Sequence record: OZ370878.1
Strand: one strand, 5' to 3'
Source: a phage
DNA: 40,608 nucleotides
Both the position numbers and the translations under genes were made by a program. Positions 1 to 40,608 of this stretch are shown here, piece after piece. The notes below the pieces were generated by a model. It did not search any database and was not told the origin of the DNA. It saw nothing but the letters and a program-made list of their open reading frames with translations. Position 1 is the first letter of the stretch; each line of letters opens with the position of its first letter.

Positions 1-137
1 GTAACACCCAAAGACAAACCCAAGGGTCATCCCCAACCCTTAGGGAACCCTCAAGGTCAACCGAAGGTTGACTTTAGGTGATTGGCTGGGCTTTAGGTAC
101 CCCCTATGGGGGAACTTTAGGTCCGTACACTGTGAGA
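1..137. repeat. Partial copy of T7 160-bp terminal repeat (reverse complement, bases 24-160)
   Basis: Identical to 40319..40455; matches remembered T7 terminal repeat sequence. Confidence 0.9.
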
Positions 138-376
138 TAGTCACTCAGATTTTTATGGTATATTTTAAAGGACCCTATAGGAACTCCATAGGCCCTCTCT
201 AAGACCCTCTTTAGGTGACACTGATAGGATGGCCTATCTTTAGGTATAGACCTTAGGATAGACCATTAGAGGCTCTTTATGGGTATACCTTAGGACTTGA
301 CTCTATAGGGATGAAGTGGTGTGATGCAATCATACCGCTGAATCCCTCGGTGAGCCATCAGTCGGTCAGGAAGACC

Positions 377-3629: not shown

Positions 3630-5291
3630 TTACTCGTTCTCCACCATGATTGCATTAGGTACAGAACGTCTGTCTGCAATATTCTTGAATCCGAGACCGT
3701 TGGAGTGTATTTGGAATCGTAACCATCCACCATCAGAGGCTATGAAGTAGATTCCATCGGGGCCAGTACGGAAGAAGTTCCAAGAGTTGTTGGCACACTT
3801 AATCCAGATATTGCGGAAGCGGAGATCCTGTGAAACAGTCACACTTACCCCACCGCCAGCACTACCAGACCACACCTGAGTCCACGCCTTGGACTTCGCA
3901 ACGAAGCTGTCACGTAGGTAAGCATCCAGCCATTTACCTCCCCACTTAGTACCTTGAATATTACCATCAGTGGCCACAACGGCCTGACCTACGTGGAAGT
4001 GTTTGTTAACTACTGCATAGTCCTGCTTGAGTGTTAAGGTCGTACCATGTACATAGGAGTGGAAGGTACAGTCATTGTTGTTATCTGACCCTCTACCAAT
4101 GTACCAGTTATTCCTGTTACCATCTTTAGATAGAATATAGTGCGCCTTGTCGGATGCGGACTCTAATTGAAGAACATGCCCATTCTGCAATTTTAGCTGA
4201 CCGGTCATGGCTCCACCTTGGGTGATGATCTGTCCGTTTACTACTAACTGGATGTTACCGCCTATCGCTGTTGTCCACTCTCTACGTTGAACATACATCA
4301 GCCATCCGTTCTCATCTCCCCACTCCATGACAGAGTAACGATTAGTGACACCACCAAAGAACTGTTGATACTGGCCACAGTCAAAACCGTTTGTGGTCAT
4401 GTAAAGGCGCCCGTTAGCGTGAATATTTCCTTTCCAGTACACATTGGTTCCATCTACCTTATCAATTGCACCAGCCAATCCATTGTAATTTTCCAGCTTG
4501 TCTGCCTCACGTTCCGCACGGTCTGCTTGCTGTTCTGCCAAATGAGCAGAGTTAGCGGATGCTGTGGCAGAGTTCTCAGCGTTTACCTCAGATTGATGCG
4601 CAGCGGAAGCAGAGTTCCCAGCAGATGTAGCGTATTGACCAGCCGTATTCTTGAACCGCTTGGCTTCGTCTCGGAAACCCTTGGTCTCATCGCGCCACTG
4701 CTTTGTGTTCGTAGCGTTGGTACTGGACTCGTTCTTAAAGCCCTCCGCTTGGTTTCTGAAAGTCTCAGCCTCATTACGGAACTGTAAGGCTTCATTACGT
4801 GCTTGCCATGAGTTCTGGTTCATGGTCTTTAGTTGACCAAACGGAACAGCATCGCGGTCATCCACGGCGTTCGCTAGGTTCACAATTCGACGACCACGAG
4901 CATCCAAGTGACCATCGTTATTGACACCGATAGTATCCGTAGTGAGGTCACGGGCCTCTTCCGCTACGTGCATCGTTTGAATCTGAGCGACGTTAAGGTC
5001 ATACGCGCGGAGGATTGAACCATCCGTAAAGTCAACCAATCGGTCGGTAGTGGAGGTTACTCGGCGTAACTCGATGGTCGTGTAGCCATCGGCTGGACCC
5101 CAAGCCTTTGTCAGAGAGATAGTAGTACGTGTAGCAAAGCGATAGTCTGTATTAATCGTAAGGACCTTTCGGTCTACACCAATAAGAGTTACCACTACGA
5201 ACTTACGGGCTAGATACTCAAACGGGATATTAAAATCACGATTGGAGCCATCTAACTGGTAAGTCAAAACGGTTTTAATTACGTTAGCCAT
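3630..5291 (-). CDS. 17: T7 gp17 tail fiber
   Basis: 553-aa ORF; matches T7 gp17. Confidence 0.95.
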   Translation of the reverse strand: MANVIKTVLTYQLDGSNRDFNIPFEYLARKFVVVTLIGVDRKVLTINTDYRFATRTTISLTKAWGPADGYTTIELRRVTSTTDRLVDFTDGSILRAYDLNVAQIQTMHVAEEARDLTTDTIGVNNDGHLDARGRRIVNLANAVDDRDAVPFGQLKTMNQNSWQARNEALQFRNEAETFRNQAEGFKNESSTNATNTKQWRDETKGFRDEAKRFKNTAGQYATSAGNSASAAHQSEVNAENSATASANSAHLAEQQADRAEREADKLENYNGLAGAIDKVDGTNVYWKGNIHANGRLYMTTNGFDCGQYQQFFGGVTNRYSVMEWGDENGWLMYVQRREWTTAIGGNIQLVVNGQIITQGGAMTGQLKLQNGHVLQLESASDKAHYILSKDGNRNNWYIGRGSDNNNDCTFHSYVHGTTLTLKQDYAVVNKHFHVGQAVVATDGNIQGTKWGGKWLDAYLRDSFVAKSKAWTQVWSGSAGGGVSVTVSQDLRFRNIWIKCANNSWNFFRTGPDGIYFIASDGGWLRFQIHSNGLGFKNIADRRSVPNAIMVENE

Positions 5292-15755: not shown

Positions 15756-16453
<698 letters not shown>

Positions 16454-17563
16454 TTATGTAATCCCAGCAGCATTTACGTACTCATGAAGGACCATGTGGT
16501 CACGAGAATTCGGATCCCCGAGCATCACACCTGACTGGAATACGACAGCTCCTGCAGCTTCTGGGCGAAGACCACCGTGGCCCATTGCGTACTTAGCGAT
16601 AATCTGGTCCGCTTGGAAGTTAGCACGGCGAGCGCGCTCCAGAGCCAAGTCACGCAGCTTAACAGTACCTACCGCGGAGCGGTGCATGAACAGGCCGATA
16701 ACGTTGTCCTTAGCAACCTTGACATTACCCTCACCTTTATTGGCAGGGAAGACGTGCTTCTGACCAGTAGTGCCCTCACGAGCGGTACCAGCACCACCAG
16801 CGGTGAGGTGCGGAACTTCTACAACCTCAAAGCCCATAACGTTGCGGATAGAACCCTTCTCAGGGTCAATCAGAGCAGCGTAGTTTGCTGCGTTCGGCAT
16901 CAGTGCTGCCAGAATCGCAGAGTAGCTATCTGGGTCACAGTAGAACACACGGTCAGCAGCCGGAACATAGTTCTTGGTCAGAGCCGCACGAGCCTTAGTC
17001 AGAGCCGCAATAATCTCCTTACCCAGCGCAACTTGGTCGGTAAGTGCGGCCTTGTTCTGAGTGGTCTCAATTACGGTAGCAGTACCTAAGCCCTCGATGT
17101 TCTCATTATATTTGCTTTCCACGTTACACAGACCGGCAATCTCAGCCAGAACCGCACCATCCGCAGCCATCGCCAGAGATTCACCCAACTGAGAGGTATA
17201 CTCAGAGCGAACGTCGTAGTGGTTCATCGCGTCCTCAATATCATAAATCAGAACGTCAGCCGTCAGGAGACCGTCAATGGTGATTACCTTCTCGGTGTGT
17301 TTGATGTCCTTACGTTTATCGTCGAGGTTCTCGCCCGGAGCCAGATACGCTGCCTGAGTGCGACCCAGAACAGGGAACTGAGCGGATTTACCGCTGGAGA
17401 TGGAACGTACCATGTGGCGAGAAGTGGTCACGGAGGTACGAGCGAACGCAGTCAGGACTTCACCGCCAAATACCTTCAAGAACAACGCCAGTTTATCTCC
17501 AGCAGCAACTACACCTTTACCTTGGTTAGTACCCATTTGCTGTCCACCAGTCATGCTAGCCAT
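16454..17563 (-). CDS. 10: T7 major capsid protein gp10 (residues 1-348, read-through form) fused to GFP11 tag
   Basis: 369-aa ORF MASMTGGQQMG...AAGAVVFQSGVMLG-DPNS-RDHMVLHEYVNAAGIT then TAATAA. Confidence 0.97.
   Translation of the reverse strand: MASMTGGQQMGTNQGKGVVAAGDKLALFLKVFGGEVLTAFARTSVTTSRHMVRSISSGKSAQFPVLGRTQAAYLAPGENLDDKRKDIKHTEKVITIDGLLTADVLIYDIEDAMNHYDVRSEYTSQLGESLAMAADGAVLAEIAGLCNVESKYNENIEGLGTATVIETTQNKAALTDQVALGKEIIAALTKARAALTKNYVPAADRVFYCDPDSYSAILAALMPNAANYAALIDPEKGSIRNVMGFEVVEVPHLTAGGAGTAREGTTGQKHVFPANKGEGNVKVAKDNVIGLFMHRSAVGTVKLRDLALERARRANFQADQIIAKYAMGHGGLRPEAAGAVVFQSGVMLGDPNSRDHMVLHEYVNAAGIT
16457..16504 (-). other. GFP11: GFP11 (M3) tag coding segment, 16 codons RDHMVLHEYVNAAGIT
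   Basis: C-terminal 16 aa of the gp10 fusion match the GFP strand-11 complementation peptide. Confidence 0.95.
16505..16516 (-). other. Cloning scar GGATCCGAATTC (BamHI/EcoRI) encoding DPNS linker
   Basis: Adjacent restriction sites directly after gp10 codon 348. Confidence 0.85.
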
Positions 17564-17656: not shown

Positions 17657-18580
17657 TCAGAAGTTCGAATCGATTACTTTCTGTTCGACTTGACGACGAT
17701 AGTTGGCATCTGTGCGATACCGAGGGTCACTCATAGCTTTAATCATCTCGCTACGGTCCGCAAAGCCTTCACGCTTGGTAGCCTGAGGTTTAGCCGGAAT
17801 AGCACGATTAGTCACACTACGAGTTGGCTTACGACCGAACGCCTTAGCGCGAGACTCACCAGCCAAGTTGATGATAGCCTTAACGGTCGCTAAGTCACGA
17901 CTGGTCAACGCATTATCCAGCGACTGTGCAGCCTCAGGGTTGTGCGTCTCAAGGTGGTTATACAGTGCATCAAAACGTTCACGACCACCAGCGTACTCAA
18001 TGACACTGTTTACGTACTGCTCCACCAGAGCTTCTTGACCACGGATATACGAGTCAATGAAAGCCTTCGTGTAGCCAATTTCAGCCAGCTTAGCGTAGGA
18101 CTCGGCGGACAACTCTTCGTTCTCCTCGTACTCACGCTGGGTAGCCTCAATGGTCTCGACACTCATGCCACGCTCAGCAGCAATGTTAATCATCTCTTGG
18201 AAGCCCTCTTCGTGCTCACCAAGTTGCTCAGAGGCAGCTACCAGTTCTTCTGGAGTCTCGCCCAGTGGGGTAAACTCTTCGGAACCTTCGGTGCCCTCAA
18301 CGCCTTCTTCTCCAGTGTCCACATCGGTCGGCTCAGAGCCATCACCGATACGAACCTGAATGCGGCCTTCGTCATCCTCTTGACCGAACGGGTCAGAGTT
18401 GTCATACAGGTCACGTTCTGTTTCCACTTCGTCTGACGCTAACTCGATTGCATCATCGCCATCACGGGCAGCAACATCAAGAGCCAGCATGTTCTGCTCA
18501 TGTTCCTCAACGGAACCACCAGACATCACAGCGGAGTTCACGCCAAAAGATGCATATACGTCTGCATTAGATTCAGCCAT
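17657..18580 (-). CDS. 9: T7 gp9 scaffolding protein
   Basis: 307-aa acidic ORF; matches T7 gp9. Confidence 0.95.
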   Translation of the reverse strand: MAESNADVYASFGVNSAVMSGGSVEEHEQNMLALDVAARDGDDAIELASDEVETERDLYDNSDPFGQEDDEGRIQVRIGDGSEPTDVDTGEEGVEGTEGSEEFTPLGETPEELVAASEQLGEHEEGFQEMINIAAERGMSVETIEATQREYEENEELSAESYAKLAEIGYTKAFIDSYIRGQEALVEQYVNSVIEYAGGRERFDALYNHLETHNPEAAQSLDNALTSRDLATVKAIINLAGESRAKAFGRKPTRSVTNRAIPAKPQATKREGFADRSEMIKAMSDPRYRTDANYRRQVEQKVIDSNF

Positions 18581-34600: not shown

Positions 34601-34627
34601 GTTCTCCTATAGTGAGTCGTATTGATT
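34601..34627 (-). promoter_or_regulatory. Single hybrid T7 RNAP promoter phi1.1A/phi1.1B
   Basis: CGCCAAATCAATACGACTCACTATAGGAGAACCTTAAGG: phi1.1A upstream flank joined to phi1.1B downstream flank. Confidence 0.8.
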
Positions 34628-34632
34628 TGGCG

Positions 34633-37284
34633 TTACGCGAACGCGAAGTCCGACTCTAAGATGTCACGGAGGTTCAAGTTACCTTTAGCCGGAAGTGCTG
34701 GCATTTTGTCCAATTGAGACTCGTGCAACTGGTCAGCGAACTGGTCGTAGAAATCAGCCAGTACATCACAAGACTCATATGTGTCAACCATAGTTTCGCG
34801 CACTGCTTTGAACAGGTTCGCAGCGTCAGCCGGAATGGTACCGAAGGAGTCGTGAATCAGTGCAAAAGATTCGATTCCGTACTTCTCGTGTGCCCACACT
34901 ACAGTCTTACGAAGGTGGCTACCGTCTTGGCTGTGTACAAAGTTAGGAGCGATACCAGACTCCTGTTTGTGTGCATCAATCTCGCTATCTTTGTTGGTGT
35001 TAATGGTAGGCTGTAAGCGGAACTGACCGAGGAACATCAGGTTCAAGCGCGTCTGAATAGGCTTCTTGTATTCCTGCCACACAGGGAAACCATCAGGAGT
35101 TACCCAATGCACAGCGCAACGCTTGCGAAGAATCTCTCCAGTCTTCTTATCTTTGACCTCAGCAGCCAGCAGCTTAGCAGCAGACTTAAGCCAGTTCATT
35201 GCTTCAACCGCAGCTACCACCGTCACGCTCACAGATTCCCAAATCAGCTTAGCCATGTATCCAGCAGCCTGATTCGGCTGAGTGAACATCAGACCCTTGC
35301 CGGAATCAATAGCTGGCTGAATGGTATCTTCCAGCACTTGTTGACGGAAGCCGAACTCTTTGGACCCGTAAGCCAGCGTCATGACTGAACGCTTAGTCAC
35401 ACTGCGAGTAACACCGTAAGCCAGCCATTGACCAGCCAGTGCCTTAGTGCCCAGCTTGACTTTCTCAGAGATTTCACCAGTGTTCTCATCGGTCACGGTA
35501 ACTACTTCGTTATCGGTCCCATTGATTGCGTCTGCTTGTAGAATCTCGTTGACTTTCTTAGCAACAATCCCGTAGATGTCCTGAACGGTTTCACTAGGAA
35601 GCAAGTTAACCGCGCGACCACCTACCTCATCTCGGAGCATCGCGGAGAAGTGCTGGATGCCAGAGCAAGACCCGTCAAACGCCAGCGGAAGGGAGCAGTT
35701 ATAGCTCAGGCCGTGGTGCTGTACCCCAGCGTACTCAAAGCAGAACGCAAGGAAGCAGAACGGAGAATCTTGCTCAGCCCACCAAGTGTTCTCCAGTGGA
35801 GACTTAGCGCAAGCCATGATGTTCTCGTGGTTTTCCTCAATGAACTTGATGCGCTCAGGGAACGGAACCTTATCGACACCCGCACAGTTTGCACCGTGGA
35901 TTTTCAGCCAGTAGTAACCTTCCTTACCGATTGGTTTACCTTTCGCCAGCGTAAGCAGTCCTTTGGTCATATCGTTACCTTGCGGGTTGAACACTGACAC
36001 AGCGTAAACACGACCGCGCCAGTCCATGTTGTAAGGGAACCAGATGGCCTTATGGTTAGCAAACTTATTGGCTTGCTCAAGCATGAACTCAAGGCTGATA
36101 CGGCGAGACTTGCGAGCCTTGTCCTTGCGGTACACAGCAGCGGCAGCACGTTTCCACGCGGTGAGAGCCTCAGGATTCATGTCGATGTCTTCCGGTTTCA
36201 TCGGGAGTTCTTCACGCTCAATCGCAGGGATGTCCTCGACCGGACAATGCTTCCACTTGGTGATTACGTTGGCGACCGCTAGGACTTTCTTGTTGATTTT
36301 CCATGCGGTGTTTTGCGCAATGTTAATCGCTTTGTACACCTCAGGCATGTAAACGTCTTCGTAGCGCATCAGTGCTTTCTTACTGTGAGTACGCACCAGC
36401 GCCAGAGGACGACGACCGTTAGCCCAATAGCCACCACCAGTAATGCCAGTCCACGGCTTAGGAGGAACTACGCAAGGTTGGAACATCGGAGAGATGCCAG
36501 CCAGCGCACCTGCACGGGTTGCGATAGCCTCAGCGTATTCAGGTGCGAGTTCGATAGTCTCAGAGTCTTGACCTACTACGCCAGCATTTTGGCGGTGTAA
36601 GCTAACCATTCCGGTTGACTCAATGAGCATCTCGATGCAGCGTACTCCTACATGAATAGAGTCTTCCTTATGCCACGAAGACCACGCCTCGCCACCGAGT
36701 AGACCCTTAGAGAGCATGTCAGCCTCGACAACTTGCATAAATGCTTTCTTGTAGACGTGCCCTACGCGCTTGTTGAGTTGTTCCTCAACGTTTTTCTTGA
36801 AGTGCTTAGCTTCAAGGTCACGGATACGACCGAAGCGAGCCTCGTCCTCAATGGCCCGACCGATTGCGCTTGCTACAGCCTGAACGGTTGTATTGTCAGC
36901 ACTGGTTAGGCAAGCCAGAGTGGTCTTAATGGTGATGTACGCTACGGCTTCCGGCTTGATTTCTTGCAGGAACTGGAAGGCTGTCGGGCGCTTGCCGCGC
37001 TTAGCTTTCACTTCCTCAAACCAGTCGTTGATGCGTGCAATCATCTTAGGGAGTAGGGTAGTGATGAGAGGCTTGGCGGCAGCGTTATCCGCAACCTCAC
37101 CAGCTTTAAGTTGACGCTCAAACATCTTGCGGAAGCGTGCTTCACCCATCTCGTAAGACTCATGCTCAAGGGCCAACTGTTCGCGAGCTAAACGCTCACC
37201 GTAATGGTCAGCCAGAGTGTTGAACGGGATAGCAGCCAGTTCGATGTCAGAGAAGTCGTTCTTAGCGATGTTAATCGTGTTCAT
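34633..37284 (-). CDS. 1: T7 RNA polymerase gp1
   Basis: 883-aa ORF MNTINIAKNDFSDIELAAIPF...ESDFAFA. Confidence 0.98.
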   Translation of the reverse strand: MNTINIAKNDFSDIELAAIPFNTLADHYGERLAREQLALEHESYEMGEARFRKMFERQLKAGEVADNAAAKPLITTLLPKMIARINDWFEEVKAKRGKRPTAFQFLQEIKPEAVAYITIKTTLACLTSADNTTVQAVASAIGRAIEDEARFGRIRDLEAKHFKKNVEEQLNKRVGHVYKKAFMQVVEADMLSKGLLGGEAWSSWHKEDSIHVGVRCIEMLIESTGMVSLHRQNAGVVGQDSETIELAPEYAEAIATRAGALAGISPMFQPCVVPPKPWTGITGGGYWANGRRPLALVRTHSKKALMRYEDVYMPEVYKAINIAQNTAWKINKKVLAVANVITKWKHCPVEDIPAIEREELPMKPEDIDMNPEALTAWKRAAAAVYRKDKARKSRRISLEFMLEQANKFANHKAIWFPYNMDWRGRVYAVSVFNPQGNDMTKGLLTLAKGKPIGKEGYYWLKIHGANCAGVDKVPFPERIKFIEENHENIMACAKSPLENTWWAEQDSPFCFLAFCFEYAGVQHHGLSYNCSLPLAFDGSCSGIQHFSAMLRDEVGGRAVNLLPSETVQDIYGIVAKKVNEILQADAINGTDNEVVTVTDENTGEISEKVKLGTKALAGQWLAYGVTRSVTKRSVMTLAYGSKEFGFRQQVLEDTIQPAIDSGKGLMFTQPNQAAGYMAKLIWESVSVTVVAAVEAMNWLKSAAKLLAAEVKDKKTGEILRKRCAVHWVTPDGFPVWQEYKKPIQTRLNLMFLGQFRLQPTINTNKDSEIDAHKQESGIAPNFVHSQDGSHLRKTVVWAHEKYGIESFALIHDSFGTIPADAANLFKAVRETMVDTYESCDVLADFYDQFADQLHESQLDKMPALPAKGNLNLRDILESDFAFA

Positions 37285-40295: not shown

Positions 40296-40455
40296 AGGGA
40301 CACAGAGAGACACTCAAGGTAACACCCAAAGACAAACCCAAGGGTCATCCCCAACCCTTAGGGAACCCTCAAGGTCAACCGAAGGTTGACTTTAGGTGAT
40401 TGGCTGGGCTTTAGGTACCCCCTATGGGGGAACTTTAGGTCCGTACACTGTGAGA
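40296..40455. repeat. Full 160-bp T7 terminal repeat (reverse complement)
   Basis: AGGGACACAGAGAGACACTCAAGG...GGTCCGTACACTGTGAGA; its last 137 bp equal window 1..137. Confidence 0.9.
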
Positions 40456-40608
40456 TAGTCACTCAGATTTTTATGGTATATTTTAAAGGACCCTATAGGA
40501 ACTCCATAGGCCCTCTCTAAGACCCTCTTTAGGTGACACTGATAGGATGGCCTATCTTTAGGTATAGACCTTAGGATAGACCATTAGAGGCTCTTTATGG
40601 GTATACCT
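40456..40608. repeat. Wrap-around duplicate of window 138..290 (right-end unique DNA of the next genome unit)
   Basis: Exact identity of 1..290 with 40319..40608. Confidence 0.9.

What the first reader, a model, noticed from the sequence alone, without database searches (positions are those of the whole stretch)
35992..35994. Possible M431V substitution in T7 RNA polymerase
The gene 1 product reads ...RVYAVSVFNPQGND..., whereas I recall wild type as ...AVSMFNPQGND... with S430 and N433 as known thermostabilising positions. Codon 431 here is GTG rather than ATG. The residue lies in the palm near the active site; it could be a strain polymorphism, a passage mutation, or a deliberate change. This rests on memory of the wild-type sequence.
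Basis: partly seen in the sequence, partly recalled or inferred. Interest (0 to 1): 0.35.

Follow-up and report, generated by a model that had tools for sequence, protein, structure and literature searches.

The report
Stray M431V change in T7 polymerase
The phage T7 RNA polymerase gene in this window does carry one base change (Met431 to Val), but it looks like one of about a dozen unplanned point mutations in a laboratory-engineered fluorescent T7 phage, at a site that varies freely among related polymerases, so it is ordinary.

Summary
Observation confirmed. Gene 1 (window 34633..37284, minus strand) differs from reference T7 by one base: nt 1291 A>G (window 35994), making codon 431 GTG (Val), not ATG (Met).

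The window is an engineered T7. It has a capsid gp10-GFP11 fusion, a downstream GFP1-10 gene, the tail-fibre S541R change with its silent marker, and the Noireaux-lab stock polymorphism gp9 N227S. This matches T7-Split-S* of Levrier et al. 2025, which was built from PCR fragments, rebooted cell-free, plaque-picked and sequenced by nanopore.

M431V is one of 13 private substitutions genome-wide. Twelve are transitions, 8 are nonsynonymous and 5 synonymous, and there are no private 1-bp indels. About 0.87 are expected in gene 1 by chance.

I found M431V in no other T7 or DE3 record, protein collection or searchable paper.

Residue 431 lies in a palm loop between invariant motifs. It is Met in 115 of 120 close homologues (Val in one) but highly variable in distant ones.

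Best reading: a real, unplanned, tolerated hitch-hiker mutation. It is not a designed or known functional change. A residual sequencing error or weak selection cannot be excluded. Low interest.

The parts
35992..35994 (-). Codon 431 of gene 1: GTG (Val) where reference T7 has ATG (Met). The changed base is window 35994 (C on the + strand; reference T), equal to T7 reference position 4461 A>G.
   Evidence: The PDB wild-type chains have Met.
34633..37284 (-). Gene 1, T7 RNA polymerase, 883 aa. It is identical to wild type except for M431V.
35971..36024 (-). Codons 421-438: the conserved palm segment DWRGRVYAVS(V)FNPQGND that surrounds the change. The model gives strand 426-428, loop 429-437, and a helix from 438.
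   Evidence: Conservation counts. AlphaFold2 secondary structure with block pLDDT about 90. Palm boundaries from PMC11617373.
16454..17563 (-). Context: capsid gene 10 fused at its C-terminal end through the linker MLGDPNS to GFP11 (RDHMVLHEYVNAAGIT; tag at 16457..16504). This marks the genome as engineered.
   Evidence: The design is described in PMC12808745. The same linker appears in the laboratory's FLAG primers.
15756..16400 (-). Context: GFP1-10 (214 aa, GFP residues 1-214) behind a copy of the gene 10 leader and ribosome-binding site, upstream of the T-phi terminator.
3663..3669 (-). Context and lineage marker: tail-fibre gp17 S541R (window 3669) plus the silent S543 marker (window 3663) of the PHEIGES 'rfaC 1' clone.
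17901..17901 (-). Context and lineage marker: gp9 N227S, present in all 27 genomes sequenced from the same laboratory's T7 stock.

Best explanation
The window is the reverse complement of a laboratory-engineered T7 genome, almost certainly T7-Split-S* (ENA OZ370880) of Levrier et al. 2025. M431V is a real but unplanned A>G transition inside the roughly 10.7-kb 'T7A' PCR fragment. It most likely arose during KOD-polymerase amplification or later propagation. It was then fixed by the bottleneck of in-vitro assembly, cell-free rebooting and single-plaque picking. It replaces Met with Val in a structured loop of the palm subdomain, between the invariant D421-x-R-G-R-x-Y427 block and the P434-Q-G-x-D438 block. 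That position is variable across single-subunit RNA polymerases, so the enzyme stays functional and the change is neutral or nearly so. Shown: the base change, its uniqueness in the collections searched, the engineered context, the genome-wide mutation spectrum and the conservation profile. Inferred: a PCR or propagation origin, neutrality, and that it is not a sequencing error.
For: Gene 1 differs from the reference by a single base, and wild type is Met431.

Engineered context: gp10-GFP11 plus GFP1-10 matches the T7-Split-S* design. That phage was made by PHEIGES, plaque-picked on E. coli rfaC and nanopore-sequenced. PHEIGES amplifies fragments of 12 kb or less with KOD One.

Lineage markers shared with that laboratory's genomes: 1896+A, gp9 N227S, and gp17 S541R with silent 36252.

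The window has 13 private substitutions: 12 transitions, 8 nonsynonymous and 5 synonymous, against 66.7% nonsynonymous expected for random transitions. About 0.87 are expected in gene 1.

PHEIGES clones sequenced earlier also carry roughly 0-6 unplanned point changes each, mostly transitions and more in multi-round builds. None is at 4461.

There are no private 1-bp indels, and the SNPs are unevenly spread over the four fragments (T7A 4, T7B 0, T7C 7, T7D 2). Both points fit real PCR-era mutations better than nanopore consensus errors.

Position 431 is M 115 / A 2 / Q 2 / V 1 in 120 homologues of 66-98% identity. In 150 representatives of 34-58% identity it is highly variable (S 29, M 18, A 17, L 15, gap 15, T 12, G 11 ... 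V 4), while its neighbours D421, R423, G424, R425, Y427, P434, Q435 and D438 are near-invariant. The model places it in a loop.

Gene 1 is essential and the rfaC host supplies no T7 RNAP (established T7 biology). A phage stock grown to high titre therefore implies a working enzyme.
Against: The assembly comes from nanopore reads only, so a residual consensus error at this base cannot be ruled out from the sequence.

Thirteen private substitutions exceed the roughly 0-6 seen in the laboratory's earlier sequenced clones. Part of the excess could be sequencing noise or extra rounds of evolution.

Met is strongly preferred (96%) among close T7-like polymerases, so a small fitness or stability effect is possible.

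The accession OZ370880 could not be retrieved here. The identification rests on design features and lineage markers.
Confidence: 0.7

Rival explanations
1. Sequencing or consensus error: the phage stock carries wild-type ATG, and the G is an artefact of the nanopore-only assembly.
For: The genome was determined by long-read nanopore sequencing. The window has untrimmed, 290-base identical ends, typical of a raw long-read contig. Its 13 private substitutions exceed the counts in the laboratory's earlier clones.
Against: Residual nanopore errors are dominated by homopolymer indels (general knowledge of the platform), yet there are no private 1-bp indels in about 40 kb. None of the 13 sites lies in a GATC or CCWGG methylation motif (contexts). 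The SNPs are unevenly spread by PCR fragment, with none in the roughly 9.9-kb T7B (Poisson P about 0.04, computed by hand from the counts).
Confidence: 0.13
2. Adaptive mutation: M431V was selected during cell-free rebooting at 29 C or large-scale growth on E. coli rfaC. It might tune polymerase stability or activity, as its neighbours S430P and N433T do, or compensate for the extra capsid-fusion cassette or the fused phi1.1A/B promoter.
For: It sits between two published thermostabilising positions and close to V426L and R425C. The phage carries burdensome edits, and a 75-bp promoter deletion lies just downstream of gene 1.
Against: Gene 1 shows no enrichment of mutations (0.87 expected, 1 observed). 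The genome-wide nonsynonymous fraction of 8/13 is not above the random expectation of 0.667. The change was not seen in 27 related genomes, including other rfaC-grown and insert-bearing phages. The site is variable in the family.
Confidence: 0.1
3. Deliberate engineering or a pre-existing strain polymorphism of the parental T7 stock.
For: The genome is heavily engineered, so designed changes do exist in it.
Against: No paper in the searchable library pairs T7 RNA polymerase with M431 or M431V. The source paper describes only tail-fibre and capsid edits. The parental stock and 26 derivatives lack the change. No T7, DE3 or plasmid record matches the 81-mer exactly, and the exact protein is absent from a collection of about 15 billion proteins. 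Position 4461 is interior to the 10.7-kb T7A fragment, not in a primer.
Confidence: 0.04

Closest known systems
Wild-type T7 RNA polymerase (gene 1; NP_041960.1 in NC_001604.1; PDB 1cez, 1qln, 1msw)
   Same: 882 of 883 residues and 2651 of 2652 nucleotides are identical. Genomic position, flanking genes 0.7 and 1.1, and all catalytic residues are the same.
   Different: Val replaces Met at residue 431 (ATG>GTG).
Thermostabilised T7 RNAP variants (S430P, N433T, S633P, F849I, F880Y; Sugiyama 2009 and Meyer 2015 as cited in PMC11617373 and PMC4551944)
   Same: The change falls in the same palm loop, between positions 430 and 433.
   Different: None of the five stabilising substitutions is present, since the protein is wild type at every residue other than 431. 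M431V is not among the published variants found.
Unplanned point mutations in PHEIGES-built T7 clones (Supplementary Data 3 of PMC10933291)
   Same: Same laboratory stock markers, same construction route, and the same mostly-transition spectrum of scattered single-base changes in otherwise designed genomes.
   Different: The window carries more of them (13), and this particular site (T7 4461) was not hit in the 27 earlier genomes.
Natural T7-like RNA polymerase with Val at the equivalent position (P0114, 69% identical; plus 4 of 150 distant representatives)
   Same: Val occupies the aligned position, between the conserved RVYA and FNPQ blocks.
   Different: These are diverged natural enzymes in which Val is part of the native sequence, not a recent single-step change from Met.

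Membership tests
T7 RNA polymerase (single-subunit phage RNAP; Pfam PF00940 and PF14700 in homologues) | Full-length 883-aa protein, collinear with and near-identical to T7 gene 1 product | tested here: met
   Aligned over residues 1-883 with 1cez and identical except at 431. One nucleotide difference from NC_001604 gene 1.
T7 RNA polymerase (single-subunit phage RNAP; Pfam PF00940 and PF14700 in homologues) | Catalytic and motif residues intact (D537, D812, K631, Y639, H784, DWRGR 421-425) | tested here: met
   The protein is identical to wild type at all positions except 431. These residues are invariant columns in alignment A1.
T7 RNA polymerase (single-subunit phage RNAP; Pfam PF00940 and PF14700 in homologues) | Genomic context: between gene 0.7 (protein kinase) and the phi1.1 promoters / gene 1.1 of a T7 genome | tested here: met
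   The phi1.1A and phi1.1B promoters are fused by a 75-bp deletion.
Engineered thermostable T7 RNAP ('M5' set) | Presence of S430P, N433T, S633P, F849I and F880Y | tested here: not met
   The sequence reads S430, N433, S633, F849 and F880.
T7-Split-S* engineered phage (Levrier et al. 2025, ENA OZ370880) | GFP11 fused to the capsid protein, with GFP1-10 expressed downstream from its own ribosome-binding site | tested here: met
   matched against the description. The fusion here is at the C-terminal end of gp10, whereas the figure legend says N-terminus.
T7-Split-S* engineered phage (Levrier et al. 2025, ENA OZ370880) | Tail-fibre S541R (Rd/Re-LPS recognition) and the laboratory stock markers (gp9 N227S, 1896+A, silent 36252) | tested here: met
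T7-Split-S* engineered phage (Levrier et al. 2025, ENA OZ370880) | Sequence identity to the deposited record OZ370880 | not testable with these tools
   The accession is not in the available collections.

The most novel reading that the evidence does not exclude
M431V could be a selected, function-modifying change in T7 RNA polymerase. It sits in the same palm loop as the stabilising S430P and N433T. It might alter stability or elongation and initiation behaviour enough to help a burdened, GFP-tagged phage in cell-free extract or on the rfaC host. If so, it would be a previously unreported beneficial allele of a widely used enzyme.
Probability: 0.08. Interest if true: 0.3.

Novelty: already known. 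Interest (0 to 1): 0.07.

Why it matters
It matters little biologically. The gene is the textbook T7 RNA polymerase, and the change is a conservative substitution at a naturally variable loop position in a laboratory construct.

There are two practical points:
- Engineered phages built from long PCR fragments carry a background of unplanned mutations, here including one in the essential polymerase. Users of this phage or sequence should know about them.
- A variant caller or reader should not treat this allele as natural T7 diversity or as a designed polymerase variant.

If the allele did change stability or activity, it would be a minor addition to the catalogue of T7 RNAP engineering sites.

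Tried and rejected
- Retrieving OZ370880 directly failed, because the record is not in the collections. I therefore could not check identity to the deposited record or whether the sister phages OZ370878 and OZ370879 share M431V.
- No supplementary files of the source paper are held.
- Literature searches for 'M431V' and 'M431' with 'T7 RNA polymerase' found nothing relevant. A search for a deep mutational scan of T7 RNAP found no usable dataset.
- LR745708.1 has nearly the same length (40606 vs 40608 bases). It turned out to be a different engineered T7, with a chimaeric tail fibre plus trxA and Met431, so it was rejected as the source.
- The AlphaFold2 model gave secondary structure and confidence only. 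No coordinates were available, so I could not measure the distance from residue 431 to the active site or its burial.
- Methylation-motif artefacts were considered for the 13 SNPs. None lies in GATC or CCWGG.
- A primer-borne error was rejected, because position 4461 is interior to the 10.7-kb T7A amplicon.

Full report
**1. The observation**

The minus-strand ORF at window 34633..37284 encodes an 883-aa protein containing ...RVYAVSVFNPQGND.... Window 35992..35994 is CAC on the + strand, which is GTG in the gene.

A base-by-base comparison with gene 1 of NC_001604.1 and of LR745708.1 finds exactly one difference in 2652 nt. It is gene position 1291 A>G, codon 431 ATG>GTG, at window base 35994. 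The PDB wild-type T7 RNA polymerase sequence (1cez, 1qln, 1msw and others) has Met at 431 and is otherwise identical to the query over residues 1-883.

**2. What the window is**

The reverse complement of the window aligns end to end with phage T7. Five features set it apart from the reference.

- **Contig layout.** The contig starts at T7 39625, runs through a single copy of the 160-bp terminal repeat into the left end, and finishes at T7 39914. Its two ends share 290 identical bases. This is an untrimmed, concatemer-like long-read contig.
- **Promoter deletion.** A 75-bp deletion fuses the phi1.1A and phi1.1B promoters just downstream of gene 1.
- **Insert.** T7 24014-24154 is replaced by 755 bp.
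- **Fused capsid gene.** Gene 10 now ends ...VVFQSGVMLGDPNS-RDHMVLHEYVNAAGIT, which is a linker followed by GFP11.
- **Second GFP fragment.** The fusion is followed by a copy of the gene 10 leader and RBS and a 214-aa ORF equal to GFP residues 1-214, placed before the T-phi terminator.

A full-text search found this design in Levrier et al., 'A synthetic cell phage cycle' (PMC12808745). Their phage T7-Split-S* carries gp10-GFP11, a downstream GFP1-10 and an S541R tail fibre. It was built from T7 WT by PHEIGES, plaque-picked and amplified on E. coli rfaC, nanopore-sequenced and deposited as OZ370880.

PHEIGES amplifies the genome as fragments of 12 kb or less with KOD One. It anneals them after exonuclease III treatment and reboots them in a cell-free reaction.

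The lineage is confirmed by markers listed in that laboratory's Supplementary Data 3. The window has the 1896+A insertion and gp9 N227S, both present in all 27 of their genomes. It also has gp17 S541R with the silent 36252 A>T marker of their 'rfaC 1' clone. The linker sequence also matches their gp10-FLAG primers. The accession itself could not be fetched, so the identification is by features, with high confidence.

**3. [quoted passage not shown]

The window has 13 substitutions not found in any of the five full T7 records compared:

| Gene | Change |
|---|---|
| 0.3 | A58V |
| 0.7 | R295W |
| 1 | M431V |
| 2.8 | silent |
| 8 | C249Y |
| 9 | I147T |
| 10A | silent |
| 12 | L529P |
| 12 | silent |
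| 13 | silent |
| 15 | A29S |
| 16 | G909S |
| 17 | silent |

- Twelve of the 13 are transitions.
- Eight are nonsynonymous, against 66.7% expected for random transitions in T7 coding sequence.
- From the genome-wide density, 0.87 are expected in gene 1, with P(>=1) = 0.58.
- There are no private 1-bp indels.
- None of the sites lies in a Dam or Dcm motif.
- By the laboratory's four standard amplicons the counts are T7A 4, T7B 0, T7C 7 and T7D 2 (fragment sizes).
- Their earlier PHEIGES clones carry roughly 0-6 unplanned, mostly-transition changes each, with more in multi-round builds. None is at T7 4461.
- Position 4461 is interior to the 10.7-kb T7A amplicon, so it is not a primer artefact.

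**4. Is the allele seen elsewhere?**

No.

- An 81-mer centred on the change has no 100% match among 162 matching phage records or 28 DE3-carrying E. coli genomes. The T7 and DE3 rows shown are 98.8% identical, which is one mismatch.
- The plasmid collection gave no match at all.
- The exact 883-aa protein is absent from the collection of about 15 billion proteins.
- No paper in the searchable library pairs 'T7 RNA polymerase' with M431V, and the one hit for M431 is unrelated.

**5. What the residue is**

The palm subdomain is given as residues 411-448, 532-540 and 788-838 (PMC11617373), so residue 431 is in the palm. An AlphaFold2 model (block pLDDT about 90 for residues 421-440) places a short strand at 426-428, coil at 429-437 and a helix from 438. 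Residue 431 is therefore in a structured loop.

Among 120 cluster representatives 66-98% identical to the query, position 431 is M 115, A 2, Q 2 and V 1. D421, R423-Y427 and F432-Q435 are invariant.

Among 150 representatives at 34-58% identity the position is one of the most variable in the segment: S 29, M 18, A 17, L 15, gap 15, T 12, G 11, and others including V 4. D421, R423, G424, R425, Y427, P434, Q435 and D438 stay near-invariant.

The neighbouring published engineering sites are R425C, V426L, S430P and N433T. The window has none of them.

Gene 1 is essential, and the rfaC host provides no T7 RNAP (established T7 biology). If the allele is real, the enzyme must work.

**6. Explanation and rivals**

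| Reading | Confidence |
|---|---|
| Real, unplanned transition, fixed by the PCR, assembly and plaque bottleneck; neutral or nearly neutral | about 0.7 |
| Nanopore consensus error | about 0.13 |
| Selected, function-tuning change | about 0.1 |
| Deliberate design or parental polymorphism | about 0.04 |

- **Consensus error.** It is disfavoured by the absence of private indels, the non-motif contexts and the uneven distribution across fragments.
- **Selection.** It is disfavoured by the lack of enrichment in gene 1, the unremarkable nonsynonymous-to-synonymous ratio and the variable site.
- **Design or polymorphism.** It is disfavoured by the literature searches and by the 27 related genomes.

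**7. Comparison with the known, novelty and score**

The gene is T7 RNA polymerase by every test: length, identity, catalytic residues and context. It is not a member of the engineered thermostable set.

The specific allele appears unrecorded. It is nevertheless a single conservative substitution at a variable site in a laboratory construct. It would not surprise a specialist and opens no question.

Novelty class: already known. Interest: about 0.07.

The most novel reading still open is that M431V is a selected stability or activity variant. I give that about 8% probability and modest interest (0.3) if true.

Noticed in passing
window 15756..17563 (minus strand): Split-GFP cassette. Capsid gp10 is fused through the linker MLGDPNS to GFP11, followed by a second gene 10 leader/RBS and GFP1-10 (214 aa). 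Together they replace T7 24014-24154, the 10B extension. The sequence shows a fusion at the C-terminal end of gp10, whereas the figure legend of PMC12808745 says N-terminus.
   Followed up: yes
window ~34601..34627 (minus strand): A 75-bp deletion fuses T7 promoters phi1.1A and phi1.1B into one hybrid promoter through their shared 17-bp core, just downstream of the gene 1 stop codon. It is absent from the other T7 records aligned and not listed in the laboratory's earlier mutation table. It probably arose by repeat recombination or PCR template switching.
   Followed up: partly
window 1..290 and 40319..40608: The two ends of the window are identical over 290 bases. The contig runs across a concatemer-type junction with a single 160-bp terminal-repeat copy. 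This is an untrimmed long-read assembly, not the true linear genome ends.
   Followed up: yes
window 39359, 37552, 30623, 19545, 18141, 16676, 13488, 13181, 12477, 11506, 6596, 5064: Twelve further private point substitutions: gp0.3 A58V, gp0.7 R295W, gp8 C249Y, gp9 I147T, gp12 L529P, gp15 A29S, gp16 G909S and five silent changes. Eleven of the twelve are transitions. Several are less conservative than M431V, for example portal C249Y and tail gp12 L529P.
   Followed up: partly
window 3663, 3669 and 17901: Tail-fibre S541R with its silent S543 marker, and gp9 N227S. These markers tie the genome to the Noireaux-laboratory T7 stock and its 'rfaC 1' error-prone-PCR clone.
   Followed up: yes
window 16520..16553 (minus strand; T7 23977-24009): The last roughly 30 nt of gene 10A are recoded, giving a cluster of substitutions and a compensated indel. 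They run into a BamHI/EcoRI-containing linker (ggggatccgaattc). From memory this resembles the T7Select display-vector junction, which removes the 10A/10B frameshift site. I did not verify that against a T7Select sequence.
   Followed up: no
gene 1 codon 430 (window 35995..35997): T7 has Ser at 430, but Pro is the majority residue in homologues (93 of 120 close, 102 of 150 distant). The published thermostabilising S430P is therefore a back-to-consensus change.
   Followed up: partly
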